A stretch of 64,000 bases of DNA from a virus (IMGVR_UViG_3300009031_000221:448001-512000), one strand, 5' to 3'. Numbered from the stretch's first letter, positions 17,983-63,906 are shown. Numbers and translations: made by a program. The notes: generated from the sequence alone by a model not told the origin.

Positions 17983-18825
17983 TTACTTTTCATTCGCTTC
18001 GGCATCGGCAACCATCTTGGCGAACTCAGCCTTCCATCCACCGGGGCGCTTACCCAAAGTTCCGATGTACAGAACATCGCCCTTGACAGGGTTAATGGAA
18101 GTCGGGTACTGGTCACGCTGGGCAGAGAACACGGTGAAGTAATAGCCGTTCTTTCCCATCGCCTGCTTCAGGGGGTTGCCAGAATAGTAGACGCGGATAC
18201 GGGATTCGCCCTGTACGTTACCCTTGTCAACATATTCCTCAATCAGCTTGATACGATCAGCAGACGGTGGCTTCGCCGTCTTGTCGCTAATGTAAACCAC
18301 TTCGATCATAGCACGTTGGTTGGCGCCGCCCGCATCCGAAGGGGTGTAACGATACAACCCGGTCTTGCTGCCGGATTCCTTGCCCTCAAAGCGTCCCTGA
18401 CCAAAGTCGCGAACCCCATCAGTGAATGCAATGATAACGGCATCGCCATCTACATCAACGACATTGCCTACCTTGCCGTCAAATTGTTCGCAGATGTCCG
18501 TGTTCTTTGGGTTCGTGTTCTTGGCAGCCTTGCACTCAACCATTTCACCCTTCTCAAGGGGGCCACGGGTTTGCTTGACGCCTTCTTCTTGCATTGGAAC
18601 ATGCAGACGATCCAACACCCTCTGGCATTCGTTCTTATCGAACTTCTCGCCCTTCATGATGCACCATGCGACAAACATTTCACTCTCCTCAGAGAATGAA
18701 AGCTTCGTGGAAGCCAATCGGGCATCCGTGTCCATGGTGTGCTCACGAATCACCGGCATCAGGTGCTCTTGCAACTGAGGGTATTCATGGGCCAAACGAA
18801 TCAGTTGCTTGATACGGTCATTCAT
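17983..18825 (-). CDS. Class B protein with N-terminal LAHxxPxL tag
   Basis: MNDRIKQLIRLAHEYPQLQEHLMPVIREH; class B motif upstream. Confidence 0.8.
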   Translation of the reverse strand: MNDRIKQLIRLAHEYPQLQEHLMPVIREHTMDTDARLASTKLSFSEESEMFVAWCIMKGEKFDKNECQRVLDRLHVPMQEEGVKQTRGPLEKGEMVECKAAKNTNPKNTDICEQFDGKVGNVVDVDGDAVIIAFTDGVRDFGQGRFEGKESGSKTGLYRYTPSDAGGANQRAMIEVVYISDKTAKPPSADRIKLIEEYVDKGNVQGESRIRVYYSGNPLKQAMGKNGYYFTVFSAQRDQYPTSINPVKGDVLYIGTLGKRPGGWKAEFAKMVADAEANEK

Positions 18826-18889
18826 TGTATGCGTCCTTCCTATAGGTCAATGGGGGAGATGCGTTCGGTAGCTCTCCTACAAGCGAACT

Positions 18890-18905
18890 TATAGAAGAGC
18901 TACCG
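18890..18905 (-). promoter_or_regulatory. Class B promoter motif
   Basis: CGGTAG-CTCTT-CTATA; inverted copy CGGTAG-CTCTC-CTACA at 18866..18881. Confidence 0.7.
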
Positions 18906-18922
18906 AATGCGATGATGTATGA

Positions 18923-18949
18923 CTTACTTTACCGATCCACAGCGTAGAT
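18923..18949 (+). promoter_or_regulatory. Class A promoter motif
   Basis: CTTACT-N13-GCGTAGAT. Confidence 0.85.
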
Positions 18950-18988
18950 AGGCTACGGGGCGCATACGATGGCCCGAAGGAACCGACG

Positions 18989-19450
18989 ATGATCAAGCTT
19001 ACCGCCAAGAAGTATCGCCACTTCAACATCGGCCATGAGGGCGGGGCCATGTCCTGCGAACTCTACGTTGATGGCGTTCTGGCGGCACACGTTGAGAACG
19101 ACGGCACCGGTAGCTCGAACAAGTACACCTGGGTCGGCCCCTATGAGAAGTGCCACTCCATCAACGTCCCCGCGGACATCGCGGCACACGTCGAAGCGCA
19201 GCCCGAAGTCGATTACCACGGCTACAAGATGAAGCCCAACTTGGACATGCTGGTTGATGATGCCTGCTACGACTTCCAGATGAACCGCAAATTGACCATT
19301 CGCTGCAAGAAGGTGACGGTGTTCCGCTTCCCGACTGACCCGAAGGATCACTATCGCGAGTACGCCAAGCCCTTCACGCCCGCCATTGCGGCGGCGATTC
19401 GTGCCAAGCACCCGAATGTCATCATCATCAACGAGACCCTGGGGGCGTAG
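18989..19450 (+). CDS. Hypothetical protein
   Basis: 153 aa, GAAGGAA RBS. Confidence 0.8.
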   Translation: MIKLTAKKYRHFNIGHEGGAMSCELYVDGVLAAHVENDGTGSSNKYTWVGPYEKCHSINVPADIAAHVEAQPEVDYHGYKMKPNLDMLVDDACYDFQMNRKLTIRCKKVTVFRFPTDPKDHYREYAKPFTPAIAAAIRAKHPNVIIINETLGA

Positions 19451-19452
19451 GA

Positions 19453-19479
19453 CTTACTTCTAGCCCAATCCGCGTAGAT
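19453..19479 (+). promoter_or_regulatory. Class A promoter motif
   Basis: CTTACT-N13-GCGTAGAT. Confidence 0.85.
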
Positions 19480-19484
19480 AGAGT

Positions 19485-19570
19485 GTGGTGATAGTTTAGT
19501 TGTGAAAACAGCAGGACAACCCAAGCGGCAAACCTGTCATTCGCGGAATCGAAGCCCGCTCACCACCCCA
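19485..19570 (+). ncRNA. tRNA-His-like RNA with 17-nt anticodon loop and degenerate T arm
   Basis: Acceptor GTGGTGA/TCACCAC + C-CCA; D stem GTTT/AAAC; AC stem GCAGG/CCTGT; 5-nt variable loop; T arm GCGGA-ATCGAAG-CCCGC. Confidence 0.75.
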
Positions 19571-19585
19571 AACGAGGTCTATCCA

Positions 19586-20035
19586 ATGAAGTTGAAAACT
19601 TTCCACCGCTACTCCGGGAGTATTACAGTCGCGGAAGTGCCCTGGTACACGTGGCTTTGGGCTCAGTTGTTCCGCCCATTAGGTTTCACCCTTTTCATCG
19701 TCGCATGTGGCTTCGGGATCGCCCAGATCCCGAAGCCCGATTACAGCTATCATCACCACTACGACGGCGTCGAATCCGTGCTGCTCCAAACGCAGCGTTC
19801 GGCTTCATTCATCGTTGTGATGCCCGATGGCACGCGGAAAGTGCAAGGCAATGAGTTCGGCGCCATCACCCTGATCTACGATGTGCCGGAAGGAAAACTT
19901 GGATGGGCGGACGCTACGCGGGATCGCGATTCGAATAATGAACAGGTCGTCATCCACACGCACGCAAAAGATCTGCAAGGCGGGGGCTGGGATCACGGAA
20001 AAGGGGGTAAAGGAACCACGGTACTGATTCCATGA
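19586..20035 (+). CDS. Membrane-anchored hypothetical protein
   Basis: TM segment LFRPLGFTLFIVACGFGIA; GAGG RBS. Confidence 0.7.
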   Translation: MKLKTFHRYSGSITVAEVPWYTWLWAQLFRPLGFTLFIVACGFGIAQIPKPDYSYHHHYDGVESVLLQTQRSASFIVVMPDGTRKVQGNEFGAITLIYDVPEGKLGWADATRDRDSNNEQVVIHTHAKDLQGGGWDHGKGGKGTTVLIP

Positions 20036-20838
20036 ACGAACGACCTCCATGCCGAGATTGTGGGAACTCGCAATACCATGCGGTGTCCTGTGAACATGCT
20101 TTCAGCCCCACGACACCGATCCTATCCCGGCATCGTGCCTATGGCCCATTGCCTTCCATGCTTGAAATATTGATGACGAAAGGAAAACTCATGCCCCCAT
20201 TGCCATCCCTTCGAGACATTTTGCCGGCAGGAACAATCATCACGCCTGTGCGTATGCCTGGGGGACTTCCCCCCCGTCATGACATTCTCATCAATGACTT
20301 CGTTCGTCGGCAGACGGCGGATTCCAAGCATTCCCATTGGATCCTCTCCGATGATGACTTGTTGGAACGCATCGAGGAAGCCTGGAGCCAGCAACGCCCA
20401 GGCTACCGTGATGGTGTCGTACTTGTGCCCGTGAACCCCCAGGGATTCTACACGTCCATCGTGACCCTCCAGGAAGGGGACAAGCTCATTGGGCAATTCA
20501 AGCGCCGCAAGGATGGAGAGGATCCCCGCAAGTCCACGATCAAGGATCGTGGGGACACTCCTTTGGAAGAGCTGAAGCAGCCCGCTGTCCTGGTTGACAT
20601 CATCCTCTACCGGGATGACGTGCTTGCGGAAGACAATGAACAAACAGGCCACGAGTGGAACATCATATCGATCAACGCCTACCCGACGAACGAGATCGCA
20701 CCGATCCACCCGGACGTGTTGATCGCCAACCACTTCCACCTGTCCGGTGGAACTGCCACGGGCATGACCCCAGAGCAGTTCGAGACCCAGATGCGTGAAT
20801 CCGTCCTGTACTGGAAGGACAAGGCAATGGTCGGCTAA
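20032..20838 (+). CDS. DUF3228-like protein
   Basis: GYRDGV..RRKDGEDPRK..VDIILY..W.IISINA..PIHP..NHF..SGGT pattern (recognised from memory); start may be downstream. Confidence 0.65.
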   Translation: MNERPPCRDCGNSQYHAVSCEHAFSPTTPILSRHRAYGPLPSMLEILMTKGKLMPPLPSLRDILPAGTIITPVRMPGGLPPRHDILINDFVRRQTADSKHSHWILSDDDLLERIEEAWSQQRPGYRDGVVLVPVNPQGFYTSIVTLQEGDKLIGQFKRRKDGEDPRKSTIKDRGDTPLEELKQPAVLVDIILYRDDVLAEDNEQTGHEWNIISINAYPTNEIAPIHPDVLIANHFHLSGGTATGMTPEQFETQMRESVLYWKDKAMVG

Positions 20839-21077
20839 TGGAACCCCTTACCCCAGATAAATGCACCAAGTGTAGCGGGGATACCGAAGAATGGTACTGC
20901 TACTGCACATGGGGATGTGAGGGCTGTGGTCTGAACCGTAAATGCCGAAAATGCGGATACGTATTCAAAGTCTACACACCGGAACAATTGGAAGAGAAAA
21001 AGAAGCAACGGCTAATCAGCCAAGCGGCAAGCAAAGCCGGGCATGAGGCTAGACTACGTAGGCAAGGAAAACGATGA
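20838..21077 (+). CDS. Small Cys-rich zinc-ribbon protein
   Basis: CTKC..CYC..CEGC..CRKC. Confidence 0.65.
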   Translation: MEPLTPDKCTKCSGDTEEWYCYCTWGCEGCGLNRKCRKCGYVFKVYTPEQLEEKKKQRLISQAASKAGHEARLRRQGKR

Positions 21078-21271
21078 AGGTAGCCCCCCGTAAATTTCGT
21101 TGTGCCGTTTGTGGAAAAGAAGTGGCCGGCAGGCTTCCCCGTGGTGGTGACGGCACCTTCTTCTATCCCCGAAAGCACAATGTAAACGGAACCATTTGCA
21201 CCGGGGTCTATTCAGAAGCAGAATGGATGACTGACAAGCCAAAGTGACATCGCCTCGGGTACAGTTCCCGC

Positions 21272-21553
21272 ATGGGCAAACGTATCCGATCGACAGTTCG
21301 ATGTCCGTTCTGTGATATGGCGTATGAGTCATTTCGCTCCCCTGCCGTGCCATCTTTCCAAGAGGCGTATTCCATCAAGATTGAGGCTAGCCGCGATTCC
21401 CACGCTAACGGGGACTACAGCGACAATGCCTATCGAGGAACCGTCCTAGGGCTAATGCGGCTCGCTAAAATGGCAGCGTGGAAGGACGAACACCTTTATT
21501 GGTGCCAAGTCGAATATGAATCCCATTCAGTAGAGGAACAAATCCCCTTCTAG
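21272..21553 (+). CDS. Hypothetical protein
   Basis: CPFC, 93 aa. Confidence 0.6.
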   Translation: MGKRIRSTVRCPFCDMAYESFRSPAVPSFQEAYSIKIEASRDSHANGDYSDNAYRGTVLGLMRLAKMAAWKDEHLYWCQVEYESHSVEEQIPF

Positions 21554-21570
21554 GGGTATAGGGAAATACC

Positions 21571-21780
21571 ATGTCATTCTATCGACAGAATCAAGCTCAA
21601 ATCGATCGCCAAAACCAATGGGAACAATCCCACGGCATGCGTCGGCGCCCTATAGACCTTGAATACCAACCTGAGCCCGATCCAAATGCCCCCAGGGAAC
21701 GAATCATCCCTTCCGTCATTGGCGATTGGAAACCTGATGACCGTCCAACCCATGGGGATGGATCCGTAGGAATCATCTAA
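21571..21780 (+). CDS. Hypothetical protein
   Basis: 69 aa, first gene of operon. Confidence 0.6.
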   Translation: MSFYRQNQAQIDRQNQWEQSHGMRRRPIDLEYQPEPDPNAPRERIIPSVIGDWKPDDRPTHGDGSVGII

Positions 21781-22445: not shown

Positions 22446-22453
22446 GTGATTGA

Positions 22454-23113: not shown

Positions 23114-23116
23114 GTC

Positions 23117-23650: not shown

Positions 23651-23653
23651 CAC

Positions 23654-24043: not shown

Positions 24044-24058
24044 CCATAAGGAATTAAC

Positions 24059-24298: not shown

Positions 24299-24304
24299 AA
24301 GGAA

Positions 24305-24931
24305 ATGATGCGAAAGCCAAATAACAAGGAACTGAAAGATATCAAACGCTACGCTTATGGCAGGCTTTGTTGGTGGAGCGAGGATATCGCCAAGGCCAAA
24401 GCTATCGTTGTAGCGCGGATCAAGGAAGACCGTGCCAATCCCGACAAACGGGATCCTGAGGTATTGAAGAAAGACCTTCGCAAGGCAGGACGCATTATAG
24501 CAAAACGCTATCGGGAAGATGCCCAAACTATTCGTGCTATCTGGAGAAATCCAAGCAATTACCGGAATATCCTAAAGCAGTGCATTATTGGCAGGTATAT
24601 CAGTACTCCTGAGGGAAGGACAAAGCTTGCCGAATCTATGACACAGCCTCTTCGTTGTGGCGGCAAGGACTACATCAACGGTGTAGGCTATACCAAGTAC
24701 GGCGGAAAGATGTTGACGGATGCGGAGTGCGAGATTCTACGGAAACGCAACAATGGGTCGGTAGTAGATTTGGGACATAGCTACCACTGCCCTGAATGCT
24801 ATGACCCCAGGACGCATCAAATTATTCCTGGATGTGTTCATTGTGCGGGCACGGGCGATTCCGAATGGTATCGTAACCTCCTACGTACGCATGTCCCTAA
24901 CAAGGGTACATGGAAACCCTCGGAGGCATAG
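24305..24931 (+). CDS. Basic protein with C-terminal CxxC..CxxC
   Basis: 208 aa; internal STPEGRTKLAESMTQPLR motif. Confidence 0.7.
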   Translation: MMRKPNNKELKDIKRYAYGRLCWWSEDIAKAKAIVVARIKEDRANPDKRDPEVLKKDLRKAGRIIAKRYREDAQTIRAIWRNPSNYRNILKQCIIGRYISTPEGRTKLAESMTQPLRCGGKDYINGVGYTKYGGKMLTDAECEILRKRNNGSVVDLGHSYHCPECYDPRTHQIIPGCVHCAGTGDSEWYRNLLRTHVPNKGTWKPSEA

Positions 24932-24934
24932 CAC

Positions 24935-25327: not shown

Positions 25328-25337
25328 GGAAACGAAC

Positions 25338-25993: not shown

Positions 25994-25995
25994 CC

Positions 25996-35466: not shown

Positions 35467-35475
35467 CCTTTAGGG

Positions 35476-35561
35476 CGCCTCTAGTAGGATTCGAACCCAC
35501 GTTGTATCTTACGACAAGCCGGGTTAAAGTCGGCTCCCATCGTCCACTCGGGCATAGAGGC
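35476..35561 (-). tRNA. Class II tRNA with anticodon UUA (putative ochre suppressor)
   Basis: Acceptor GCCTCTA/TAGAGGC, G73; D stem CCC/GGG; AC stem GCCG(A.C)CGGC with loop CT-TTA-AC; long variable arm; T arm GTGGG-TTCGAAT-CCTAC; no encoded CCA. Confidence 0.8.
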
Positions 35562-35568
35562 GACGCTT

Positions 35569-38876: not shown

Positions 38877-39350
38877 TCACGGAATATCGAATCGGACATT
38901 CTCACCGTCCCACCACCCAACACGTCCTCGAACTGTGGGCATCCCTGATCGGGCTTCTGCACTCCGCACTAGGAACTTGGCATAAGCAGGGGGAACCCCT
39001 GCCGCAGTGGATATGGTGATATGTGGAATTCGCCCTCGGGGTGCTAAAATGCTAGGCGGGTCTACTACCACGGCCTGCCCTTTAGCATCCTCCGCATAGC
39101 CTACAATCTTCAACGCTATGAACTTCCCTAATGGAAGTTCCTCAAGGCGGGGATCCCCACCGTCATGGTGCGTCCATATAGTCATATGATGGGCAAACAG
39201 TTCTGAATGAACCTGTCCAAACCGATCGACTAATCGACGTTGATCCATGGGAGACAGAAACACTGCCGTATAAAGGGGAGTGCCTATGAATTCGGCAACA
39301 ACATGCCGTATCCACCGGGATGCCACACGATGTTTAGGGCTTTGTTGCAT
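38877..39350 (-). CDS. 2H phosphoesterase with N-terminal RVASRW tag
   Basis: Two HxT motifs: HHMTI and PHITIS. Confidence 0.8.
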   Translation of the reverse strand: MQQSPKHRVASRWIRHVVAEFIGTPLYTAVFLSPMDQRRLVDRFGQVHSELFAHHMTIWTHHDGGDPRLEELPLGKFIALKIVGYAEDAKGQAVVVDPPSILAPRGRIPHITISTAAGVPPAYAKFLVRSAEARSGMPTVRGRVGWWDGENVRFDIP

Positions 39351-39811: not shown

Positions 39812-40882
39812 TTAATCGTTACATAGGGACAGTTGCTTGGTGATGTAAGTCTTTGCCGTAGCCAACTCTTTGGCTAGGTTTCTTCCATCTACGTCAGGCA
39901 AGAACCTTGGGCTCCCGCTCAACCTTCGCAATGATTTCCCAAAGAATCCAAGGATCTTTTGTGCCATAGTTGAATCCACAAGGGCGACTGTATCCAGAAG
40001 CCTCACTGCTTGATTCAACTCCGATTCAATGACTGCCGATTTGCCTGTTCCTGCAATTTCCAATAGGGCTTGGCTAATTGCATCATGTACCATTCGCAGC
40101 GCTGGAATGCATCGTGTTACAGACTGTGAACCCCATCCAAAGCCCGTACTCCTAGTCAGGCCTACTGGGTATTCACCCATCGGAAGCTTGTGTCCATCCG
40201 GTGTCACATGCTTCGGTCCAAACGCATCTACATAACCATGTGCTATTCGTTTGGCATAGTGAGTTTGCAACTCACGCCTTGCCGCGGCCTCTGTCGGAAA
40301 TAAACCACGGGGATCTTCATCGAACTGGGTTCCATCGATGCGTCCCGTCTGCCCCGAGTCTGTCAAAGCACCCCAACGGCGGATGACCCGGTATCCACCA
40401 TCAGCAGGGATAACCAATCCCTCATAGAATTTCGAGTTGTTATTTTTCGGATTGACCTGATAGACCATGAATGCGTTATCGTCATTCACGGCAGCCTTGG
40501 TCAATCCCTGAGCCAACAGAATCGGCTTGTGTGCCACGCGATGCAGGATTGCCATCTTCTCGAAGTTCGTTAGTGACGCCCAACGGGTACTGGCACGAGG
40601 AAAACATAGGGAAGCAACTCGCATCTCCTCCCATGCAATCTTCTGATCCGCGGCATAAACAACCATTGCACGCTTGGCAACCTTCGCAGCCAGAGCCGTT
40701 TCTCCACGTTGATACTTCTGGGACAATTCCGACCATGTACGCTGGTTGAAATCCTGAAGGTAAGGGCTATCTGGATCAACCATAGCCGGGGCTTTTACCT
40801 TGCCGATATCTTTGGGATCCATGTTATTCTGTGCCATTGATATCATCCCCGTGAATTCGTGTTCGTATGATCCTTCATACAC
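39812..40882 (-). CDS. WGR-domain protein with N-terminal propeptide-like region
   Basis: NNNSKFYE..YRVIRRWGAL..GQ..A..EL..YAKRIAHGY; multiple K/R-x-A motifs upstream. Confidence 0.8.
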   Translation of the reverse strand: MYEGSYEHEFTGMISMAQNNMDPKDIGKVKAPAMVDPDSPYLQDFNQRTWSELSQKYQRGETALAAKVAKRAMVVYAADQKIAWEEMRVASLCFPRASTRWASLTNFEKMAILHRVAHKPILLAQGLTKAAVNDDNAFMVYQVNPKNNNSKFYEGLVIPADGGYRVIRRWGALTDSGQTGRIDGTQFDEDPRGLFPTEAAARRELQTHYAKRIAHGYVDAFGPKHVTPDGHKLPMGEYPVGLTRSTGFGWGSQSVTRCIPALRMVHDAISQALLEIAGTGKSAVIESELNQAVRLLDTVALVDSTMAQKILGFFGKSLRRLSGSPRFLPDVDGRNLAKELATAKTYITKQLSLCND

Positions 40883-40893: not shown

Positions 40894-40909
40894 TATTGAA
40901 TGCCTACCG
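40894..40909 (-). promoter_or_regulatory. Class B promoter motif
   Basis: CGGTAG-GCATT-CAATA. Confidence 0.65.
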
Positions 40910-55137: not shown

Positions 55138-55139
55138 CT

Positions 55140-56391: not shown

Positions 56392-56394
56392 TTT

Positions 56395-56410
56395 CGTTAG
56401 GCATCCTATA
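56395..56410 (+). promoter_or_regulatory. Class B promoter motif
   Basis: CGTTAG-GCATC-CTATA. Confidence 0.6.
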
Positions 56411-56434
56411 CCAACCGGTATATGAGGTGCTTCA

Positions 56435-57088
56435 ATGTCCATACGAACAGAATCTGCTGAACGTGTTGCTTCCACTTGGCGTGTAGCATCCGAATTTTGG
56501 AATCGGCTAAGCCGTTCCGTTCCAATGTATACGGACGATGCTCTCCGTACTTTAGGACTATCCTCAGGTGCTAGCCCCGAAGAAATCAAATCCGCCTATC
56601 GCAAGATGATGATGCTTCATCATCCTGATCGCGGAGGAGACACAGCCAAGGCACAGCAAATTAATGAGGCATACGCACAACTGAAAGAAGGCATCACCAT
56701 CAATCGCCCCTATGGCTATTCCCGCCCTACTCCTACGCCCCCACCTCGTCCAGCCCCGCCTCGCCCTACCCCTACGCCACCCCCAAGGCCAACTCCATCA
56801 GCAAACCCTCACATAAGGGTAACGTGGAGGATGGCTGAGAATCTAACGGGAATGCACGGGGAAAGCCGTCCGGACGCCAAAGACATCAAGCGGATTGATG
56901 ATATGATCGTGCGAGCCAAGGGCAACCCCGCCAAACTAGCGGCACTGGCTCAACAAATGGCCAGTTCTATTGACAGTATTGCAAAGGCTCTTCGCCGAGG
57001 TCGTGCAGCAGAAGAACATGCAGATAGCTCTGTGAATTATGCTTCACAGGTATTCTACACTCGTGCTCGGACCCTTGCCGGAGTGTAG
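56435..57088 (+). CDS. J-domain (DnaJ-like) protein with N-terminal RVA tag
   Basis: LGLSSGASPEEIKSAYRKMMMLHHPDRGGD..INEAY; Pro-rich linker. Confidence 0.9.
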   Translation: MSIRTESAERVASTWRVASEFWNRLSRSVPMYTDDALRTLGLSSGASPEEIKSAYRKMMMLHHPDRGGDTAKAQQINEAYAQLKEGITINRPYGYSRPTPTPPPRPAPPRPTPTPPPRPTPSANPHIRVTWRMAENLTGMHGESRPDAKDIKRIDDMIVRAKGNPAKLAALAQQMASSIDSIAKALRRGRAAEEHADSSVNYASQVFYTRARTLAGV

Positions 57089-57089
57089 G

Positions 57090-57260: not shown

Positions 57261-57438
57261 TCGCAAAGTCCTTTTCAAGCTCGGCGAGGTCTTCACACTT
57301 GGCATCGTAGCACCCTTGGCAAAGCCCCGCCCATACCGGAGATTCCTTCTGACATTCGTGGCATGTATCAGACGGTGGCAGAGGGCTAATACTCGTATCC
57401 CCGTCAAAGAAATCTTTCAAATCCATCCGTTGCCTCAC
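57247..57438 (-). CDS. Small Cys-containing protein
   Basis: CHEC..CQGC. Confidence 0.6.
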   Translation of the reverse strand: MRQRMDLKDFFDGDTSISPLPPSDTCHECQKESPVWAGLCQGCYDAKCEDLAELEKDFANGTL

Positions 57439-58199
57439 ACTGCGATCTTGAACAATGAACGAATGGCATCAGGATCTACCGGAATACCGGCCTTCTTGGA
57501 ATGCGCTGCTGCTTCCGGGCCAATCTTGATTTCCGTCAACCGATCAGGCGTCAACGAATACCGGACATACAACCCAACCGGCAACATCGCCTTCAGGATA
57601 TCCTTGGCAACGGTCTTGGGCTTATGCTGTGCATGCCAATGTCCATTCACGGAAGGTTCCAGAACCTTCTCCCCCAGCTTGACGCCATCAATGTAGATCG
57701 TTCCCTTGACAAGGTTGTTCGTGCAGTCTCCCGCACCAACGTAGACCTGTGCCCCTAGGATGATCTGCCCGTCTACCTGAAGAGGTTCCCACGTCCGGGC
57801 ATATCCCGTATCTATGGTCTTGATGCCCTGGTAAGCCGCCGCGTTCAGGACATGTGTGAAATACTCATCTACTTCCTGAACCGCTTCCGCCACATCCTGA
57901 AGGGTCACGAGAGGATAACCCGCTTCCTGCGTAGCTTTCATCAAGCTTTTGAACAGCGAACCCTGACTCCAAATCTCATGGAGCTTCCTATGACTCCGTT
58001 CAATCAACGCCGAATACTGAAATCCCGTCCAGAAAAGGACGTGTACCTTTTCATCGCCATAAATAGCGTATTTCCCAAAGGTTCCGTGCCGCTCCCCTTT
58101 CTTGTGAAGGATCATCGACACCAGGGTTCCTTGGCCTAGATTGCCAATCCCTGTCAAGGAAGATGCGGTACGGGTATCATTTGCGTTGGTCGCGAGCAT
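57435..58199 (-). CDS. Hypothetical protein, paralog of 52124..52930
   Basis: Shared motifs; GGAGG RBS. Confidence 0.8.
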   Translation of the reverse strand: MLATNANDTRTASSLTGIGNLGQGTLVSMILHKKGERHGTFGKYAIYGDEKVHVLFWTGFQYSALIERSHRKLHEIWSQGSLFKSLMKATQEAGYPLVTLQDVAEAVQEVDEYFTHVLNAAAYQGIKTIDTGYARTWEPLQVDGQIILGAQVYVGAGDCTNNLVKGTIYIDGVKLGEKVLEPSVNGHWHAQHKPKTVAKDILKAMLPVGLYVRYSLTPDRLTEIKIGPEAAAHSKKAGIPVDPDAIRSLFKIAV

Positions 58200-58247
58200 G
58201 GTATGCCTCCAGGGAGATATACCCCAGGGGAACCAAAAGCGATCTAG

Positions 58248-58973
58248 CTAGTCCCTCTCGGAAGCCGTTAGGGTAGCCTTGCCTTCCCCAATCTCCCAAT
58301 CCTCAAAATCGTGTGGGGATCTAGGATGAGGAATGCCTATCTTCTCGTAACCCTCATCGGAGGTGACTCGAAGGGACTTAGGCAACCGTCCGTAGAACGA
58401 ATTCCAGTCCGGGGATTTCAGGGCAATTACCGCCAGATCTTCTGCAAGTTGCCGTTTCTCGGCATCCCCATGCGGGGCCTTCCAGGATCCTTCCAATGTG
58501 ACAGTCAACGTGGCCCATTCATCCACAGGGTAGGCTTCCATATTTGTGATCCTGACGGACTTAGGATCGATAACTTGATTCGATTCCATGTATCGATAGG
58601 CAACACGAGAAGCCAATTTACCAATAGGAGATTCACCTAATTCTTCTGCGGATATGCGATCCGCCTCGGGTTTCACTTTATTTGCCAACTTCACAGCTTC
58701 TTGAAGTGTGTCCACTGTCTGGGATGACCACCGATGTGCAGGGTTCCCTGTGTACCACACCACTCGAAATAGCTCCTTCTTGGATCCTGTGTGCCGTTGA
58801 TGAACGAAATTGACAGCGTAGAATGTAACAACCCGTTGTTCATAGGATTGGTCATGGGGGTCTAACCGCCACCGCTCAGCCTTAAGCCGTCGCATTACTT
58901 CTGCAACAGTAATGGTCAAAACCCGATCATTTGCGATCAAGTATCGAGCAATAATCCGTTGTGCCAATCCCAT
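58248..58973 (-). CDS. Two-domain class B protein with two RVA-type tags
   Basis: N-terminal LAQRIIARYL, internal LASRVAYRYM. Confidence 0.75.
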   Translation of the reverse strand: MGLAQRIIARYLIANDRVLTITVAEVMRRLKAERWRLDPHDQSYEQRVVTFYAVNFVHQRHTGSKKELFRVVWYTGNPAHRWSSQTVDTLQEAVKLANKVKPEADRISAEELGESPIGKLASRVAYRYMESNQVIDPKSVRITNMEAYPVDEWATLTVTLEGSWKAPHGDAEKRQLAEDLAVIALKSPDWNSFYGRLPKSLRVTSDEGYEKIGIPHPRSPHDFEDWEIGEGKATLTASERD

Positions 58974-58983
58974 GTTCTAACCC

Positions 58984-59478
58984 CTACTTCATGTACCGGG
59001 AAGCAACACGGGATGCAATCTTGCCATCCTTCATCCGTTGCCCCAACAAGTACAACGGCGTTTCGTGGCTATCCGCCAACCCGGCAAGGAAGTTATCCAT
59101 ACCAAGAGTGAGTTCCTCAGATTCATCTAGAGCATCAACAGTGTTGGTGATGGCATCCTGAAGCCCTTCCTCCACCATGTAAGCACGGGCAACAAGGTCA
59201 GGTTCCTCAGCCCACTTGGCTGCAAATGCTGCCTGCATACGAGTTTGTTGCACGAGGTCTACAGATTCTGTTCCATACATGGCAACCATCTTCTCTGCCA
59301 ACCCATCGATCTCGCCGGGGAAGCTTCCATAGAGGCGCCCAAACAATTCATGGTCGGCATAGAAGTTGGAACCCTTGGACTGCCAATGTGCCGTCCAGTG
59401 ATTCTGATAAGCAGCATGAAGGTATGCCAGCAATGTTTGGCAGGACTCGGTTTGTGCGGCTCGCTTATTCATGGTCAT
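58984..59478 (-). CDS. Dps-like ferritin-superfamily protein with C-terminal RVASRY tag
   Basis: AHWQSKGSNFYADHELF..LY..EIDGLAEK ferroxidase pattern. Confidence 0.85.
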   Translation of the reverse strand: MTMNKRAAQTESCQTLLAYLHAAYQNHWTAHWQSKGSNFYADHELFGRLYGSFPGEIDGLAEKMVAMYGTESVDLVQQTRMQAAFAAKWAEEPDLVARAYMVEEGLQDAITNTVDALDESEELTLGMDNFLAGLADSHETPLYLLGQRMKDGKIASRVASRYMK

Positions 59479-59482
59479 TTCC

Positions 59483-59947
59483 TCAATAGATGGTCACGTT
59501 GACGCGAAACGGATGCTTCGCATAAAACTCCGCAATCGCGAAGGATGAAACCCTCGGATACTTGCGTCCTGACCATACGTCCTCATGAACATGATCAGGT
59601 TGTACAGGGCCAAAGTCCTGCAAAGGTGTGGTCACAGAATCTACGACTATCTTACCGCCCGATGCTTTCGCCATGCGGCCTACGGTTGCCTTGATTACGG
59701 ATGCAATTCGTCCCGGTGTGATCTTGTCCGTGCTGTTCATGTCCTCCCGCTTGGGGACAGCCGCAAATACATGTATTTGACCCGTTACGTTAGGACCGTT
59801 CTCATTGTAACTGTCCACTCGTGCCCGATTGACACCCGGCAAGTCATGCAACTCATCCGCAATACCGTCCAACACAGCAATACGGGCAATATCCCGTCCT
59901 ATGAATTGACGTGCTACTCGATCAGCCATGAATTTACTAGGCATCAT
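59483..59947 (-). CDS. Class B protein with N-terminal RVA tag
   Basis: MADRVARQF. Confidence 0.75.
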   Translation of the reverse strand: MMPSKFMADRVARQFIGRDIARIAVLDGIADELHDLPGVNRARVDSYNENGPNVTGQIHVFAAVPKREDMNSTDKITPGRIASVIKATVGRMAKASGGKIVVDSVTTPLQDFGPVQPDHVHEDVWSGRKYPRVSSFAIAEFYAKHPFRVNVTIY

Positions 59948-59956
59948 ATGTAAGTC

Positions 59957-60319
59957 CTACATGAAGGCGTCAATTTCATTGAGCAGTTCTCGCACATGAC
60001 CTAGCGAACCGACGAATCCCCAGTTCTTGGGGTCTCGCTTGAATAGAATTACATCTTGCTTCAATTTTCGGCGGATACTGACCAAAAGGGCATCAATTTC
60101 AGCCATACGCTTCCGGTAAGCTTCTTCAGCAGTATCTTCGGCCACCCGACGCATCCATTGACGGGCTACACGTTCACTTGCGGTCTTGAATTCATAATCG
60201 GGCTTCATCTTCTTGTAGATGCCCATGATGTAGGCATAATCTTCGTCCTTGCCTTGTTCTTTGGCAATAGACTTGGCCTTCTGCCACTTCTTTTCGTCTT
60301 CAGGTGTCTTAGTAGGCAT
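59957..60319 (-). CDS. Two-domain class B protein with internal RVA tag
   Basis: MPTKTPEDEKKWQKAK domain, ASERVARQWMRRVAED, helical C-domain. Confidence 0.8.
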   Translation of the reverse strand: MPTKTPEDEKKWQKAKSIAKEQGKDEDYAYIMGIYKKMKPDYEFKTASERVARQWMRRVAEDTAEEAYRKRMAEIDALLVSIRRKLKQDVILFKRDPKNWGFVGSLGHVRELLNEIDAFM

Positions 60320-60358
60320 TACACAAACCCTTGGTACAAATCCTACCAAGGGCTATCG

Positions 60359-60374
60359 TATAAGGACGCTACCG
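60359..60374 (-). promoter_or_regulatory. Class B promoter motif
   Basis: CGGTAG-CGTCC-TTATA. Confidence 0.7.
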
Positions 60375-60683
60375 ATTCCCAGGAAACTTGCCGTGCATGA
60401 TGTCACGAATCATCTTGTTCGGATTCCTAGAGTCATTGTTGTGAATCAGAGATTCCATACGGCTTGCCATGGCAATCCACAACCGGTATTCCGCCAAGGT
60501 GGGGAGCGTACATTCATCCGCCATCTTGCGAAGGGCTTGGGGATCCGGCAGTGCTCTGCGATCCCGGCCACCGGGCAGGAGGTTACGAAACTCCAGGCAA
60601 TCCCCGCCGTACCAACCATGGGTGGAAATATGCTGAAAGCGCACAATGCGAACAGCCATCCGCTGAAGGTCGAGGGGAGTCAT
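60369..60683 (-). CDS. Hypothetical protein
   Basis: 104 aa. Confidence 0.6.
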   Translation of the reverse strand: MTPLDLQRMAVRIVRFQHISTHGWYGGDCLEFRNLLPGGRDRRALPDPQALRKMADECTLPTLAEYRLWIAMASRMESLIHNNDSRNPNKMIRDIMHGKFPGNR

Positions 60684-60686
60684 GGA

Positions 60687-61211
60687 TTAGCCCGCCTTGT
60701 GCGTGACAGCCAACACCACTCGGTGATGCGGACGACCCTCGTCCTGGCTATTTGCATCCGTGATCTGAACCTGCTGCACGGCGTCGATGTCCGTGAACAT
60801 GCTGACCTTGGGAACGGTTCGACCTTCATTATGAGGAACCACGTCTTCCCGCATGGAGGCGTAACCCTCATCCAGGGTGCGGAAGCCATCGGAGCGCCAG
60901 CACGAATCATGATACGAGGTCATCTTCCACTGCTCGGGCTTGACCGCTTCGAACCGACTGCCCGTGTACGCCCACACCTTCGTGTAATTGGTCAGGCGGG
61001 AAAACAGGAAGTGAAAGTACCGCGTGCTTTCCGCCGGCGTCTCGTTGTCATGAGGATCGGGGCACACGATGAGGCCCCCCGTACGGGACTTGGTTGCACC
61101 GTAATTGGTCATCGTGGCACGCATGCGGATGTACAATCCATGCTGGGTACCAACCGGCAGCATGTTTTCGACCAGTACCACAAGGGCATGTTCAGCGCGA
61201 AGTTCAAGCAT
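60687..61211 (-). CDS. Hypothetical protein
   Basis: 174 aa, GAGGAA RBS. Confidence 0.7.
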   Translation of the reverse strand: MLELRAEHALVVLVENMLPVGTQHGLYIRMRATMTNYGATKSRTGGLIVCPDPHDNETPAESTRYFHFLFSRLTNYTKVWAYTGSRFEAVKPEQWKMTSYHDSCWRSDGFRTLDEGYASMREDVVPHNEGRTVPKVSMFTDIDAVQQVQITDANSQDEGRPHHRVVLAVTHKAG

Positions 61212-61223
61212 GACTGGTTCCTC

Positions 61224-61568
61224 CTACAGGGTAATCATTGCGTCAAGCAATGCCTTGGCATTCTTGAGCCCGATTCCAGGAATGGCCTCAAGCATGAACT
61301 TCATGGCATTGAGGAGGTTGGGGTACTTGTAACCATCCGGATGCACGGAGAAGTGCCATGCGCTATGGCCAATCGGGGGCGGGGAACTGGATTTCCGACG
61401 ATCCGTGTAAAGGATTTCGCGTGCCTCCGCAAGCGTGTCATTCGATACAAGAACGACCGTGCCATCCTGCAACATGACCCGCTTGAAATTGCTCTGGCAC
61501 TTCGGGAGAAGGCTGATAAGGGATGTCATCGTCGTTTCCTTTAGATTCGTGCGACCAGATTTGCCCAT
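61224..61568 (-). CDS. Hypothetical protein
   Basis: True start probably MTSLIS (AAGGAA RBS). Confidence 0.65.
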   Translation of the reverse strand: MGKSGRTNLKETTMTSLISLLPKCQSNFKRVMLQDGTVVLVSNDTLAEAREILYTDRRKSSSPPPIGHSAWHFSVHPDGYKYPNLLNAMKFMLEAIPGIGLKNAKALLDAMITL

Positions 61569-61864
61569 GACGCCGCATCCGCCGCCTTGTCTTCCGCCAG
61601 GGTGATGCGATCCTCGCCAGCCAACGTGTCAACCGCTTCCGCCAGGAGGGCACCGAAGTTGATGCAGTTCCAACCCTCGCCGAAGTCGATCGCGAGGATG
61701 TTCCCGCGGTGCGATTCCAGGGTCGTCATGTACCAACCCGCACCAGCACCTTCCATCCGAAGGATCCAATCCTTCTTGGAAAAGCCCGGGCGATCCGTTT
61801 CGGTCAGGGTGACAGGGTAGGAATGCCCGCGGTTGTCAATGGCGCGAATGGTCAGGGTCTTCAT
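61541..61864 (-). CDS. Hypothetical protein
   Basis: 107 aa, behind class A promoter. Confidence 0.75.
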   Translation of the reverse strand: MKTLTIRAIDNRGHSYPVTLTETDRPGFSKKDWILRMEGAGAGWYMTTLESHRGNILAIDFGEGWNCINFGALLAEAVDTLAGEDRITLAEDKAADAASWANLVARI

Positions 61865-61912
61865 CGTAAGTTCCTCAGGGATGGTCGTGCCGTAGCAGCC
61901 TCCCTATGGATC

Positions 61913-61939
61913 ATCTACGCTGTCGAAGACGAAAGTAAG
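61913..61939 (-). promoter_or_regulatory. Class A promoter motif
   Basis: Reverse CTTACT-N13-GCGTAGAT. Confidence 0.85.
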
Positions 61940-61942
61940 TCA

Positions 61943-62140
61943 CTACTGGAAAAGATGATCCCCAGCCCGCAAAATCCTTTGAATGCGGCGCCTTCGTTCG
62001 ATGACACTTAGCACACCGATCACAACAGGAATGGCAGCAAGGGCAAAGAAGATTGCAGCAATCACCCCGGAATTGTGGACATGCCCATCCTCAGGAAGGA
62101 TGTCCCACCATGTTCCGAAATAGATCCACAGGTTATACAT
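61943..62140 (-). CDS. Small membrane protein
   Basis: One TM helix followed by RRRR. Confidence 0.65.
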   Translation of the reverse strand: MYNLWIYFGTWWDILPEDGHVHNSGVIAAIFFALAAIPVVIGVLSVIERRRRIQRILRAGDHLFQ

Positions 62141-62867
62141 CGATGATCAAGCTCTGGTTGAAGTCCGTGTCTTCCCGAGGATAGCCCAAAGGATTGCACA
62201 CGACCCGCGTGGCGTTGCCCGAACCCGTCAAGTAGTCACAGGGGCTATGCGTATGCCCGTGAATCCAGATTGCAGGCTCATGACGGTCAATCTCGGCATC
62301 CATTTCGCACACGAAGAACGCATTCAAGGCGCTACCCTTGTAGCGGGGATCCACCGACTGCTGCGACGGCAAGTGGTGCGTCACCACGATGTCTCCCGCT
62401 TCCATCCGCGAATCCAGGAAACGCCGTGAAGCCGAATTCGCATCATAGACCCAGGGCTTGAACCCCTTGATCAACTTGAAGTCCGCCAACTGATGTTCAT
62501 GCCAGAACGCCATGGGATTCTCGCGAAACCACAACGTGGCACCCAGGAACCGATGCCCCATGTGTTCCCACACTTCGTTCTCCAACCAATGCAGGTTCGG
62601 AATCAAAGCGTTGAACGACACTCGCATCGCTTCCACTTGATCAGGCGTGCTGTAGTACACGTCGTGGTTGCCATTGACCATGACAACCTGCGGATATTTC
62701 GCACAAATGCTTCGCAGCATCGTGCCGTATCCTTTATGACAGGCTTCCGCCAAATCCCCCGCGATGACCAGCACATCCACGTTCGTAGGATCCAGGCTTG
62801 CGATGAATGCAGCACCTTCATCCCTATGGAAGTCCAGGTGAAGGTCTGACAGGATTTGCATTCGCAT
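62133..62867 (-). CDS. Calcineurin-like metallophosphoesterase
   Basis: SDLHLD, AGDL, GNHD, THHLP, HGHTH. Confidence 0.92.
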   Translation of the reverse strand: MRMQILSDLHLDFHRDEGAAFIASLDPTNVDVLVIAGDLAEACHKGYGTMLRSICAKYPQVVMVNGNHDVYYSTPDQVEAMRVSFNALIPNLHWLENEVWEHMGHRFLGATLWFRENPMAFWHEHQLADFKLIKGFKPWVYDANSASRRFLDSRMEAGDIVVTHHLPSQQSVDPRYKGSALNAFFVCEMDAEIDRHEPAIWIHGHTHSPCDYLTGSGNATRVVCNPLGYPREDTDFNQSLIIDV

Positions 62868-62869
62868 GG

Positions 62870-63112
62870 CTACCGGCTCCTCTGATTGCGGTGCAATTGT
62901 ATCGCCTTCCTACCATCTGTCAACGCTTCTTCACGGGTGTTGAACGGCCCCGTCCAACCATCATCCGCACCCCACCAGTGCCCAGGAGATGAAGGAACCT
63001 TCACCTGGATACCAGAACGCTTCATCGCATCCACGTAGAACTGATCCACATAGATGACAGCGGGCTCCCGGCCCGTGAACCATTCAGCGATGCGATATGG
63101 TGTGTTCTTCAT
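62870..63112 (-). CDS. Hypothetical protein
   Basis: MKNTPY start behind class A promoter. Confidence 0.55.
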   Translation of the reverse strand: MKNTPYRIAEWFTGREPAVIYVDQFYVDAMKRSGIQVKVPSSPGHWWGADDGWTGPFNTREEALTDGRKAIQLHRNQRSR

Positions 63113-63145
63113 TTTCCATGACCCACAGGACATCCTGTGTGGTCT

Positions 63146-63172
63146 ATCTACGCTACTGAAGGAAGAAGTAAG
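63146..63172 (-). promoter_or_regulatory. Class A promoter motif
   Basis: Reverse CTTACT-N13-GCGTAGAT. Confidence 0.85.
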
Positions 63173-63179
63173 CCGAAGC

Positions 63180-63851
63180 CTAATCCATTGCACAATAGGT
63201 GTGATACTTGATGCCTTCTTTCTGCATGAGTTCCAAAATCTGATAGAACCGCAGATTCTGTACCTTCGCCATGTTGTCCTTGATCCAACGGTAGAACGCA
63301 GGGACAGATGCCTTCCCACCCTTTGCCGCGGGGATACATACTGGGAGGTTGTTCTTATCCATGCGATCCCGAATGACAAATGAATCATAGGTCGCTTCAA
63401 TGAATACATCCCCGGTACGAATCTCAATAGGTTCATATCCAGCGGGCATAACTGCGATACCCTTTTCCTGATGAACCTCAAGATCCAATCGTTCCCCCAA
63501 GGCCTTGGAACGACTTACAAGCTGTTGTGCCATCGCCAAAGCCGCATCATAACGCATGTTCTTCAAACGGAAACCGAACCTGATGATGTCATCGCCCAGA
63601 GCTTCATCCCGAACATCATCAATGTGGTATAGGGCGAATACATCAACGGTCTTGCCACGCTTACCGGCATTGGTCAGATCCCATACACGATAGGCTGTAC
63701 GGAAAGCATGGAACCGAATGTTTGGACCTTCAAAAGTATTCCCCGTCAATGCAGAATCTGCATGCTTGCGAAGCAATGGCACGAGATGCTTTCGCAATTC
63801 AGGGTTGCTATGTGCAAGTTTGGCAACACGATGATAGAGTTGATCAGGCAT
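63180..63851 (-). CDS. Class B protein with N-terminal LAHxxPxL tag
   Basis: MPDQLYHRVAKLAHSNPELRKHLVPLLRKHA. Confidence 0.8.
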   Translation of the reverse strand: MPDQLYHRVAKLAHSNPELRKHLVPLLRKHADSALTGNTFEGPNIRFHAFRTAYRVWDLTNAGKRGKTVDVFALYHIDDVRDEALGDDIIRFGFRLKNMRYDAALAMAQQLVSRSKALGERLDLEVHQEKGIAVMPAGYEPIEIRTGDVFIEATYDSFVIRDRMDKNNLPVCIPAAKGGKASVPAFYRWIKDNMAKVQNLRFYQILELMQKEGIKYHTYCAMD

Positions 63852-63890
63852 GTGTAGAGTCCTATGGGCAAAGTCCTATAGGTCATGCGC

Positions 63891-63906
63891 TATAGGATGG
63901 CTACCG
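63891..63906 (-). promoter_or_regulatory. Class B promoter motif
   Basis: CGGTAG-CCATC-CTATA. Confidence 0.7.

What the first reader, a model, noticed from the sequence alone, without database searches (positions are those of the whole stretch)
17983..63906. Candidate virion-cargo tagging system: class B promoter genes encode unrelated domains sharing RVAxR and LAHxxPxL peptide tags
Seen: a second motif CGGTAG-N5-YTATA (18890, 40894, 56395, 60359, 63891) precedes transcription units whose proteins share short amphipathic tags. Type 1: HRVASRWI (2H phosphoesterase), ERVASTWRVAS (J-domain), DRVARQF (59947), QRIIARYL and SRVAYRYM (58973), SRVASRYM (C-terminus of Dps-like), ERVARQWMRRVA (60319), KVAKR/RVAS/HRVAHK (WGR). 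Type 2: LIRLAHEYPQLQEHLMP (18825) and VAKLAHSNPELRKHLVP (63851). Tags sit at N-termini, C-termini or between domains and are typically followed by K/R-x-A. I saw none in class A genes. Established: T4 internal proteins use a capsid-targeting sequence removed by prohead protease, and phiKZ-like head proteins are cut at short motifs. Inference: a portable packaging/cleavage signal that loads diverse effectors into the head for injection. This is the strongest candidate for an undescribed system.
Basis: partly seen in the sequence, partly recalled or inferred. Interest (0 to 1): 0.88.

Follow-up and report, generated by a model that had tools for sequence, protein, structure and literature searches.

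The report
Portable peptide tags in huge phage
A 536-kb phage and its many uncultured relatives attach two short, conserved helical peptides to the ends of dozens of unrelated late-expressed proteins; these are real portable docking tags, most likely used to load the proteins into the assembling phage head, but no packaging was shown.

Summary
The window lies in a complete 536-kb phage genome whose capsid protein resembles that of Bacillus phage G.

Type 1 (RVAxR[YWF]) occurs 11 times in my 541 called proteins against 0.2 expected. It sits near protein ends (13 of 20, P about 5e-5), and its synonymous codon positions vary.

Type 2 is a 27-residue helix-kink-helix module, LRxxLIRLAHxNPELRxHLLPLLK. 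It has 9 copies in this genome, 11 matches in a 485-kb relative, and 2,408 metagenomic cluster representatives. It has no Pfam family and no name, and no paper holds the strings I searched.

Tags are gained, lost and swapped on orthologous bodies (Dps-like, WGR). Genes behind the class B promoter carry tags (at least 6 of 21); genes behind the 94-copy class A promoter do not (0 of 61). Class B also drives tail-sheath, endolysin-like and head-module genes, but ribonucleotide reductase too.

Tags are concentrated in the head-assembly module. The prohead protease has a conserved, loosely similar C-terminal tail.

The capsid-loading reading is therefore plausible (about 0.45) but circumstantial. 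No cleavage, binding or virion presence was shown.

Other first-stage readers of this scan noted the same motif elsewhere in this genome.

The parts
63891..63906 (-). Class B promoter motif (exact), 55 nt before the start of the type-2-tagged gene
63180..63851 (-). 223-aa protein with an N-terminal type 2 module (encoded about 63732-63851; HRVAKLAHSNPELRKHLVPLLRKHA). The body has no Pfam hit. In LR745208 the same tag plus body is the C-terminal half of a 588-aa protein.
60359..60374 (-). Class B promoter motif (exact) heading a five-gene minus-strand unit (60319 down to 57435)
59957..60319 (-). 120-aa protein with an internal double type 1 motif, ERVARQWMRRVA (aa 49-60). In relative P0274 this protein is fused to the Dps-like protein.
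59483..59947 (-). 154-aa protein with an N-terminal type 1 motif, DRVARQF (aa 9-15)
58984..59472 (-). Dps/ferritin-like protein. A 14-residue C-terminal extension, DGKIASRVASRYMK, is appended after the conserved end of the fold (...HETPLYLLGQR).
58248..58973 (-). 241-aa protein with N-terminal QRIIARYL (aa 5-12) and interdomain SRVAYRYM (aa 122-129)
57435..58199 (-). Last gene of the same unit; no tag found
56395..56410 (+). Class B promoter motif (one mismatch) before the J-domain gene
56435..57088 (+). DnaJ-domain protein with a tandem type 1 motif at the N-terminus, ERVASTWRVASEFW (aa 9-22)
40894..40909 (-). Class B promoter motif (one mismatch) before the WGR gene
39812..40837 (-). WGR-domain protein. 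Its N-terminal about 100 aa hold weak type-1-like pieces (KVAKRA, RVASL, HRVAHK). Orthologous bodies in P0034 and P0054 carry type 2 modules instead.
38877..39350 (-). 157-aa protein with two HxT motifs (2H-phosphoesterase-like; no Pfam hit) and N-terminal type 1 HRVASRWI (aa 7-14)
18866..18905 (.). About 40-bp palindrome holding two back-to-back class B motifs (18890- exact, 18866+ one mismatch)
17983..18825 (-). 280-aa protein with an N-terminal type 2 module (IKQLIRLAHEYPQLQEHLMPVIRE, encoded about 18706-18825)

Best explanation
Type 1 ([S/Q]-R-V-A-x-R-[Y/W/F]-[L/M]) and type 2 (LRxxLIRLAHxNPELRxHLLPLLK, predicted helix-kink-helix) are portable docking peptides. They belong to a large clade of huge phages that share a phage-G-type HK97-fold capsid protein.

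The peptides are appended to the N- or C-terminus, or between domains, of otherwise unrelated proteins. These proteins are transcribed from the class B promoter, the class that also drives tail-sheath, endolysin-like and head-module genes.

Shown here:
- The motifs are non-random, selected at the protein level, terminal and portable.
- They are conserved across relatives and linked to class B promoters.
- They are concentrated in the head-assembly gene module.

Inferred:
- The tags bind a conserved component of the assembling prohead, either the scaffold core or the inner face of the very conserved capsid protein.
- Tagged enzymes and accessory proteins (Dps-like, J-domain, WGR, 2H-like, and the large multi-enzyme protein after the portal gene) are thereby enclosed and later delivered with the DNA.
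- Multi-copy type 2 proteins would act as multivalent, scaffold-like core components.
- Whether the prohead protease removes the tags is unknown.
For: Non-randomness. Type 2 matches in the genome score E 5e-23 to 2e-8. An unbiased all-against-all BLAST of the proteome recovers type 2 as the main short module shared by unrelated proteins.

Protein level: synonymous positions of the motif codons vary.

Portability:
- Dps-like orthologs end at ...LYLLGQR. After that they carry RVASRYMK, QRVASRYRR, QKVASRYLGR or ERVANAYV, or an N-terminal ARVASVY plus a C-terminal RRVAAAFL, or nothing.
- WGR bodies carry type 2 in P0034 and P0054, and a Dps-like body carries type 2 in P0138.
- The tagged 223-aa protein is fused behind another domain in LR745208.

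Link between the two types: one type 2 copy reads LLRVASENP.

Spread: 2,408 representatives at E<=1e-3; 339 modules in 149 of the top 150 proteins (121 N-terminal, 56 C-terminal, 162 internal).

Head link:
- MCP at 137187-138062 matches PDB 6WKK phage G gp27 at E 1e-63.
- Portal, TerL and protease are identified.
- Tagged genes lie between and beside them: 125762, 123917, 142303, the 1,798-aa protein directly after the portal, 157329, 158035 and 161411.
- In the syntenic locus L019 the slot of 158035 holds a 1,780-aa protein with 5 type 2 modules, a neighbouring 338-aa protein has one more, and a Dps-like gene sits in the head module.
- Type 1 position is conserved in the 125762, 142303 and 161411 families and in the large protein after the portal, across up to 6 relatives.
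- The protease C-terminal tail EA[KR]TLIRL[GA]xLLS is conserved in 6 of 6 relatives.

Promoter link: 0 of 61 class A against at least 6 of 21 class B first genes are tagged. Three of the 4 exact class B sites precede type 2 genes. Class B precedes tail sheath and an endolysin-like gene.

Precedent: T4 IPIII and P1 DarB terminal capsid-targeting signals (PMC9024508). The giant-phage protease gp245 loses a C-terminal propeptide, and head proteins lose N-terminal ones (PMC10052503).
Against: - There is no direct evidence that any tagged protein is in a virion.
- No receptor was identified.
- Class B also drives ribonucleotide reductase, so it is not strictly a 'virion' class.
- Many tagged genes lie far from the head module.
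- The scaffold's own conserved C-terminal peptide (LWESAPDVSKVFNG), the likeliest capsid-binding element, is unrelated to either tag.
- The resemblance of the protease tail, the scaffold 'CIRIARAML' and the p300 'LDRIASLMQ' to the tags is weak. None scores with the type 1 or type 2 profiles.
- Phage G and Tunturi_5, which share the capsid-protein family, have neither tag.
Confidence: 0.45

Rival explanations
1. The tags dock onto some other common hub that is not the prohead. Candidates are a chaperone system (the phage J-domain protein with host DnaK), a replication or assembly factory, a membrane site, or each other (self-association into a condensate). They would co-localise late accessory proteins without packaging them.
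For: - Basic amphipathic helices are generic interaction elements.
- Many tagged genes are outside the head module.
- The bodies include a J-domain protein and enzymes that could act in the cytoplasm.
- Multi-copy type 2 proteins with long acidic or lysine-rich linkers look like multivalent scaffolds of the kind that drive condensates.
- Class B also drives RNR.
Against: - Tags are concentrated in the conserved head-assembly module, and their positions there are conserved.
- No candidate alternative hub was found.
Confidence: 0.28
2. The conserved part is mainly a recognition or cleavage site for the prohead protease (the K/R-x-A or h-x-E end of the motifs), not a targeting element.
For: - Type 2 ends in a conserved [KR]-[EKQ]-A.
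- Several type 1 copies are followed by E (RYME, RYLE, RFLE).
- T4-like and phiKZ-like proteases cut after x-x-E motifs (PMC10052503).
- Interdomain copies occur in the 1,798-aa multi-enzyme protein.
Against: - Many copies lie 2-15 residues from the C-terminus, where cutting would remove almost nothing.
- The conserved core (R-V-A-x-R-aromatic; 27 residues for type 2) is much larger than a protease site.
- The protease specificity is unknown, and the protease has no match in the PDB by sequence.
Confidence: 0.1
3. The tags are arginine-rich nucleic-acid-binding peptides that hold proteins on phage DNA or RNA, so that any packaging would be passive, along with the DNA.
For: - Both tags carry a net positive charge.
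- One tagged body is Dps-like, a DNA-binding family.
- Lysine-rich tails occur in some type 2 proteins.
Against: - The conserved positions are as much hydrophobic or aromatic (V, A, Y/W, L, P) as basic.
- Linkers between type 2 copies are strongly acidic.
- No known nucleic-acid-binding family matched.
Confidence: 0.08
4. The motifs are chance, a compositional artefact, a DNA-level repeat, or simply the shared N-terminus of one paralogous family.
For: R, V and A are common residues, and some quoted examples (KVAKR, RVAS in the WGR protein; RVARIYM inside the capsid protein; RIATRYF inside the RNB domain) are probably not tags.
Against: - 11 observed against 0.2 expected, and controls give 0-2.
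- There is a terminal bias.
- Synonymous positions vary.
- The same motif occurs on orthologs in distant relatives.
- Only the tag region matches between tagged proteins.
- Type 2 E-values go down to 1e-26 in a 1.8-billion-protein library.
Confidence: 0.02

Closest known systems
T4 internal-protein capsid targeting sequence (CTS) and the P1 DarB N-terminal packaging signal
   Same: A short terminal peptide on otherwise unrelated, anti-defence-type proteins that are enclosed in the head and injected. The peptide is portable to foreign proteins (PMC9024508, and its citation of Mullaney and Black 1996).
   Different: - Those signals are N-terminal only and are used by a handful of proteins. The P1 paper discusses a consensus among Dar N-termini, but the snippet I read is cut, so I cannot say whether one was found.
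- Here a sharp consensus is shared by dozens of proteins, at either end or between domains, often in several copies, and across thousands of metagenomic proteins.
- Function is untested here.
Encapsulin cargo-loading peptides
   Same: - A conserved short peptide at the end of unrelated cargo, including ferritin-like proteins.
- An HK97-fold shell.
- Gain and loss of the peptide on orthologous cargo.
   Different: - Encapsulin peptides are typically described as extended Gly/Ser/Leu-rich segments (from memory, not tested here). These tags are basic amphipathic helices with no sequence likeness.
- The shell here is a DNA-packaging tailed-phage head with a separate scaffold and protease.
C-terminal tail or propeptide of prohead proteases (HK97 gp4 from memory; SPN3US gp245, PMC10052503)
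   Same: The protease here has a 150-residue C-terminal extension. It ends in a conserved helix, EAKTLIRLGKLLS, that shares LIRL[AG] with type 2. Such tails are what bring proteases into proheads in HK97, and in SPN3US the C-terminal propeptide is auto-cleaved.
   Different: The similarity to the tags is a 5-6 residue word that scores with neither tag profile. No test of targeting was possible.
Polyvalent or MuF-type head proteins and phiKZ inner-body or ejection proteins
   Same: A very large multi-enzyme protein (2H, nucleotidyltransferase, topoisomerase IB) is encoded directly after the portal gene. Many accessory proteins are presumably carried in the head (PMC13282480).
   Different: In what I read of those systems (PMC13282480 passages, PMC10052503), I saw no shared consensus tag described; I did not search for this specifically.

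Membership tests
T4/P1-type capsid targeting sequence | A terminal peptide sufficient to bring a foreign protein into the prohead | not testable with these tools
   Needs an encapsidation assay. Only the position (13 of 20 copies terminal) and portability are shown.
T4/P1-type capsid targeting sequence | Carrier proteins are found in virions and are encoded with, or expressed with, head genes | tested here: inconclusive
   Tags are enriched in the head module and behind class B promoters. No virion proteome exists for this clade, and the Tunturi_5 paper has none.
T4/P1-type capsid targeting sequence | Removal of the signal by the prohead protease at a defined site | not testable with these tools
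   A conserved [KR]-x-A end on type 2 is compatible with this but is not evidence of cutting.
Encapsulin cargo-loading peptide | Short conserved terminal peptide shared by unrelated cargo proteins | tested here: met
Encapsulin cargo-loading peptide | HK97-fold shell protein encoded in the same genome | tested here: met
   MCP matches PDB 6WKK gp27 at E 1e-63; precomputed family PF25209 Phage_capsid_4.
Encapsulin cargo-loading peptide | The peptide binds the inner face of the shell protein | not testable with these tools
   No usable result was obtained; see Tried and rejected.
Encapsulin cargo-loading peptide | The shell is a DNA-free nanocompartment without portal, terminase or tail | tested here: not met
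   Portal, TerL, protease, scaffold and tail sheath are all present.
Pfam LRV repeat (PF01816) | Match to the family profile, or profile similarity to bona fide LRV repeats | tested here: not met
   No PF01816 match in the genome. hhalign of type 2 against the LRV repeats of P0080 gives probability 0.1%.
Any curated protein family (Pfam, PHROGs) | Type 2 module covered by an existing model | tested here: not met
   No family covers the module in 10 + 121 type-2-bearing proteins or in the window proteins.

The most novel reading that the evidence does not exclude
A widespread clade of huge phages uses consensus, encapsulin-like cargo-loading peptides: a minimal 8-residue helix and a 27-residue helix-kink-helix. 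These peptides bind the near-invariant capsid protein or its scaffold core. Any late protein can then be made a head-delivered effector simply by gaining the tag. That would amount to a natural, programmable protein-delivery code with thousands of clients.
Probability: 0.33. Interest if true: 0.85.

Novelty: new variant of a known kind. Interest (0 to 1): 0.68.

Why it matters
How jumbo and huge phages choose the many proteins they carry in the head is largely open. In the reviews read here, the known signals (T4, P1, HK97) each serve only a few proteins.

A sharp, portable consensus tag would help in three ways:
- The 'packaged proteome' of uncultured huge phages could be predicted from sequence alone.
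- It would point to which accessory enzymes (Dps-like, J-domain, WGR, 2H-like, multi-enzyme proteins) may act at the moment of injection.
- It would offer a compact handle for loading foreign proteins into phage heads.

Whatever its function, the 27-residue module is a large protein family (2,408 cluster representatives) with no Pfam model or source name, and I found no paper describing it.

Tried and rejected
1. Complex prediction of the capsid protein (alignment A3) with a type 2 peptide (alignment A2): 'no answer', score 0.00, controls not run. This is no evidence either way.
2. Type 2 as a Pfam LRV repeat: rejected.
3. Close relatives in IMG/VR through the 788-aa head-module protein: none found. 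A megablast of the window against phage records also gave nothing.
4. Tunturi_5 (cultured, same capsid family) as a source of virion proteomics: the paper has none, and the genome has neither tag. Phage G likewise has neither tag.
5. Literature search for the peptide strings: nothing relevant.
6. Pfam on 10 type-2-tagged proteins of LR745208 and on 121 metagenomic ones: almost no known domains, only WGR x2, RelA_SpoT x1, DUF7717 x2 and zinc ribbons. The 'diverse effectors' claim therefore rests on few identified bodies.
7. Protein Atlas search for the 151-aa type 2 protein: only untagged viral hypothetical proteins resemble its body.
8. The protease tail, the scaffold 'CIRIARAML' and the p300 'LDRIASLMQ' as true copies of the tags: kept only as leads, since neither profile scores them.
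9. The class B motif is not conserved in LR745208, so the promoter-tag link could be tested in this genome only.
10. My gene calls come from a home-made Markov caller that covers 80% of the genome. Some starts are wrong, for example the J-domain gene, so counts per gene are approximate.


Full report
**Context**

The window is bases 448001-512000 of a single 536,053-bp contig. The contig has 52% G+C, 68 tRNA genes and a tmRNA. It is listed as a complete virus record. No gene finder was available, so I trained a 3-periodic Markov model on the genome's own long ORFs. It called 541 genes covering 80% of the sequence, and counts per gene are therefore approximate.

The capsid protein is at genome 137187-138062(-). 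It matches the solved phage G capsid protein gp27 (PDB 6WKK) at E 1e-63. It is at least 88% identical in more than 120 metagenomic cluster representatives, out of 2,101 hits, many of them on 350-520 kb contigs. TerL, the prohead protease and the portal were identified by PHROGs and by similarity to phage G and Tunturi_5. The nearest deposited genome is LR745208.1, a 485-kb uncultured phage with TerL 57% and capsid protein 88% identical. I fetched it whole.

The class B motif CGGTAG-N5-YTATA has 3 exact copies in the window against 0.03 expected, and 9 with one mismatch against 0.58 expected. Genome-wide there are 4 exact and 28 one-mismatch copies. Of these 32, 27 are intergenic, mostly 50-60 nt before a start codon.

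RVA.R[YWF] occurs 11 times in the called proteome. Per-protein shuffles give 0.2 on average and never more than 3, and permuted patterns give 0-2. The DNA pattern for R-V-A-x-R-Y is found 10 times in this genome against 2 for the reversed control. It is found 0 times in phage G and 0 times in Tunturi_5.

Synonymous positions of the motif codons differ between copies, so selection acts on the peptide and not on a DNA repeat. Of 20 good copies, 13 lie within 25 residues of a protein end against 4.9 expected (P about 5e-5).

Some quoted pieces are probably not tags. These include the weak KVAKR and RVAS in the WGR protein and RVARIYM inside the capsid fold.

**Type 2 is much bigger than reported**

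The LAHxxPxL pieces belong to a 27-residue module, LRxxLIRLAHxNPELRxHLLPLLK[E/Q]A. AlphaFold predicts helix 4-18, a break at the N-P, and helix 20-43, with pLDDT above 90 over the core.

The genome has 9 matches in 7 proteins. Four are single N-terminal copies, two proteins have tandem N-terminal copies, and one copy is C-terminal. LR745208 has 11 matches.

A profile of the four clearest copies was searched against 1.84 billion representatives. It found 2,408 proteins at E<=1e-3 and 125 at E<=1e-10. In the top 150 proteins there are 339 modules: 121 N-terminal, 56 C-terminal and 162 internal. Most proteins have 2-5 copies separated by acidic or lysine-rich linkers.

None of these proteins is named or covered by Pfam. 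No paper holds the peptide strings. Their genomic contexts are those of relatives of this phage.

An all-against-all BLAST of the proteome, run without any prior pattern, recovers type 2 as the main short segment shared by otherwise unrelated proteins.

**The two tags are related and interchangeable**

One type 2 copy in this genome reads LLRVASENP where the others read LIRLAHENP. The R-V-A-S core of type 1 therefore looks like a variant of the first helix of type 2.

Orthologous bodies swap tags:
- The WGR body of the window protein carries type 2 modules in P0034 and P0054.
- A Dps-like body carries type 2 in P0138.
- Among 22 Dps-like orthologs the fold ends at ...HETxLYLLGQR. After that come RVASRYMK, QRVASRYRR, QKVASRYLGR or ERVANAYV, or an N-terminal ARVASVY plus a C-terminal RRVAAAFL, or nothing.
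- The 223-aa type 2 protein of the window is the C-terminal half of a 588-aa protein in LR745208, with the tag then internal.

This is the behaviour of a portable short linear module, not of a paralogous family.

**Link to promoters**

The other abundant promoter, class A (CTTACWT-N12-GYGTAGAT), has 94 copies with invariant spacing. It precedes 61 called genes, none of them tagged.

Class B precedes 21 called genes. At least 6 of these are tagged by a strict pattern. The genes at 466825, the J-domain gene, the WGR gene and the ORF at 529812 are further cases missed by the pattern or by my gene starts. Three of the four exact class B sites lie 55-80 nt before type 2 genes. The fourth heads the five-gene unit at window 60319-57435, in which four proteins carry type 1.

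Class B also precedes a 1,770-aa tail-sheath protein, an endolysin-like protein, head-module genes and ribonucleotide reductase. I read it as a middle or late class, not a purely structural one. LR745208 has neither motif, so this link can be tested in one genome only.

**Link to the head**

The head module is syntenic in six relatives: this genome, LR745208, L019 and L032-L035. The order is TerL, portal, a 1,300-3,000-aa multi-enzyme protein (PolyA_pol and Topoisom_I domains), a p300 protein, a p205 protein, protease, scaffold, a p230 protein and the capsid protein.

Tags within or beside this module:
- The multi-enzyme protein has type 1 copies in every relative, some at conserved positions.
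- p205 has RVAQAFVKQA at the same interdomain site in 5 of 6 relatives.
- The 130-aa family of 125762 ends in type 1 in at least four genomes (this one, LR745208, L033, L035).
- The 161411 family starts with a type-1-like motif, [KR][ST]VA[SRG]RW.
- 157329 has a type-1-like piece (QVAARHM) at its N-terminus and type 1 at its C-terminus.
- 158035 starts with type 2.
- In L019 the slot of 158035 is filled by a 1,780-aa protein with five type 2 modules. Its neighbour carries another, and a Dps-like gene lies inside the module.

The protease has a long C-terminal extension ending in EA[KR]TLIRL[GA]xLLS in all six relatives. It shares LIRL[AG] with type 2. Such tails bring proteases into proheads in other phages, and in SPN3US the C-terminal propeptide is cut off (PMC10052503). 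This resemblance, and similar R-h-A helices in the scaffold and in p300, score with neither tag profile. They are leads only.

The scaffold's own C-terminal peptide, LWESAPDVSKVFNG, is different from the tags. It recurs inside one other protein.

**Interpretation**

I am confident (about 0.9) that these are portable docking peptides.

The most economical target is the assembling prohead, which gives capsid loading as in T4 IPIII or P1 DarB (PMC9024508). Three points support this:
- the tags' concentration and positional conservation in head-module proteins;
- the late-type promoter;
- the near-invariance of the capsid protein, which would suit a hub bound by many clients.

I put this at about 0.45. 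Nothing shows presence in virions, cleavage or a receptor. Class B is not purely structural. Phage G and Tunturi_5 share the capsid family without the tags.

Rivals, with rough odds:
- docking to another hub, or self-association: 0.28;
- a protease site: 0.10;
- nucleic-acid binding: 0.08;
- artefact: 0.02.

**Comparison and novelty**

The system would work like capsid-targeting sequences and, in logic, like encapsulin cargo-loading peptides: a conserved terminal peptide, a ferritin-like client and an HK97-fold shell. It is not an encapsulin system, because portal, terminase and tail are present, and the sequence does not resemble the peptides of the known systems.

A shared consensus used by dozens of proteins per genome, at either end and in multiple copies, was not described for any phage in the papers I could search. 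Other first-stage readers of this scan noted the same motifs elsewhere in this genome. Those notes were unchecked, and I count them only as leads.

Noticed in passing
window 24308-24931 (+): This 207-aa protein carries a copy of the capsid protein's N-terminal arm (MCP aa 2-40, NILKQCIIGRYISTPEGRTKLAESMTQPLR) fused to a zinc-ribbon body. A second capsid fragment (MCP aa 51-98) lies in genome 312934-313602(-). It could be a co-assembly handle or a decoy.
   Followed up: partly
window 18856-18915: The exact class B motif (18890-) and its one-mismatch twin (18866+) are the two arms of one palindrome of about 40 bp, that is, back-to-back divergent promoters.
   Followed up: partly
window 35473-35562 (-): ARAGORN calls a tRNA with anticodon UUA (ochre suppressor type), far from the main tRNA arrays.
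   Followed up: no
genome 213608-213694 (-), locus L031: A C-terminal type 2 copy (SSLRHNLIRLATAKPELRKHIVPLLRKH, then stop) ends an ORF next to the tRNA array. It is the only C-terminal type 2 in this genome.
   Followed up: partly
genome 129428-130648 (-) and 139022-140776 (-): The last 13 residues of the acidic, EF-hand-containing scaffold (LWESAPDVSKVFNG) recur inside an unrelated 406-aa protein. This is a third shared short peptide in the head region.
   Followed up: partly
whole genome: Class A promoter CTTACWT-N12-GYGTAGAT: 94 copies with invariant spacing. Neither class A nor class B is present in the 485-kb relative LR745208, where several type 2 genes instead share GGCTATCC about 25 nt before the start.
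   Followed up: partly
genome 137187-138062 (-): The capsid protein is extraordinarily conserved: at least 88% identity in more than 120 cluster representatives and 2,101 hits. Neighbouring head proteins are only 30-60% identical between the same genomes.
   Followed up: partly
loci L019, L034; genome 15510-20048 (+): Inteins and homing endonucleases interrupt core genes in this clade: the portal in L019, the protease in L034, and the UvrD-like helicase in this genome.
   Followed up: no
genome 142939-143844 (-) and P0002, P0003, P0010, P0013: A further shared module, SDEPYMK[AG]EFTQQE, links the head-module p300 protein to multi-type-2 proteins of relatives. The C-terminal 80 residues of the 1,798-aa protein, and a repeat in 199490-201670, are likewise shared with type 2 proteins.
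   Followed up: partly
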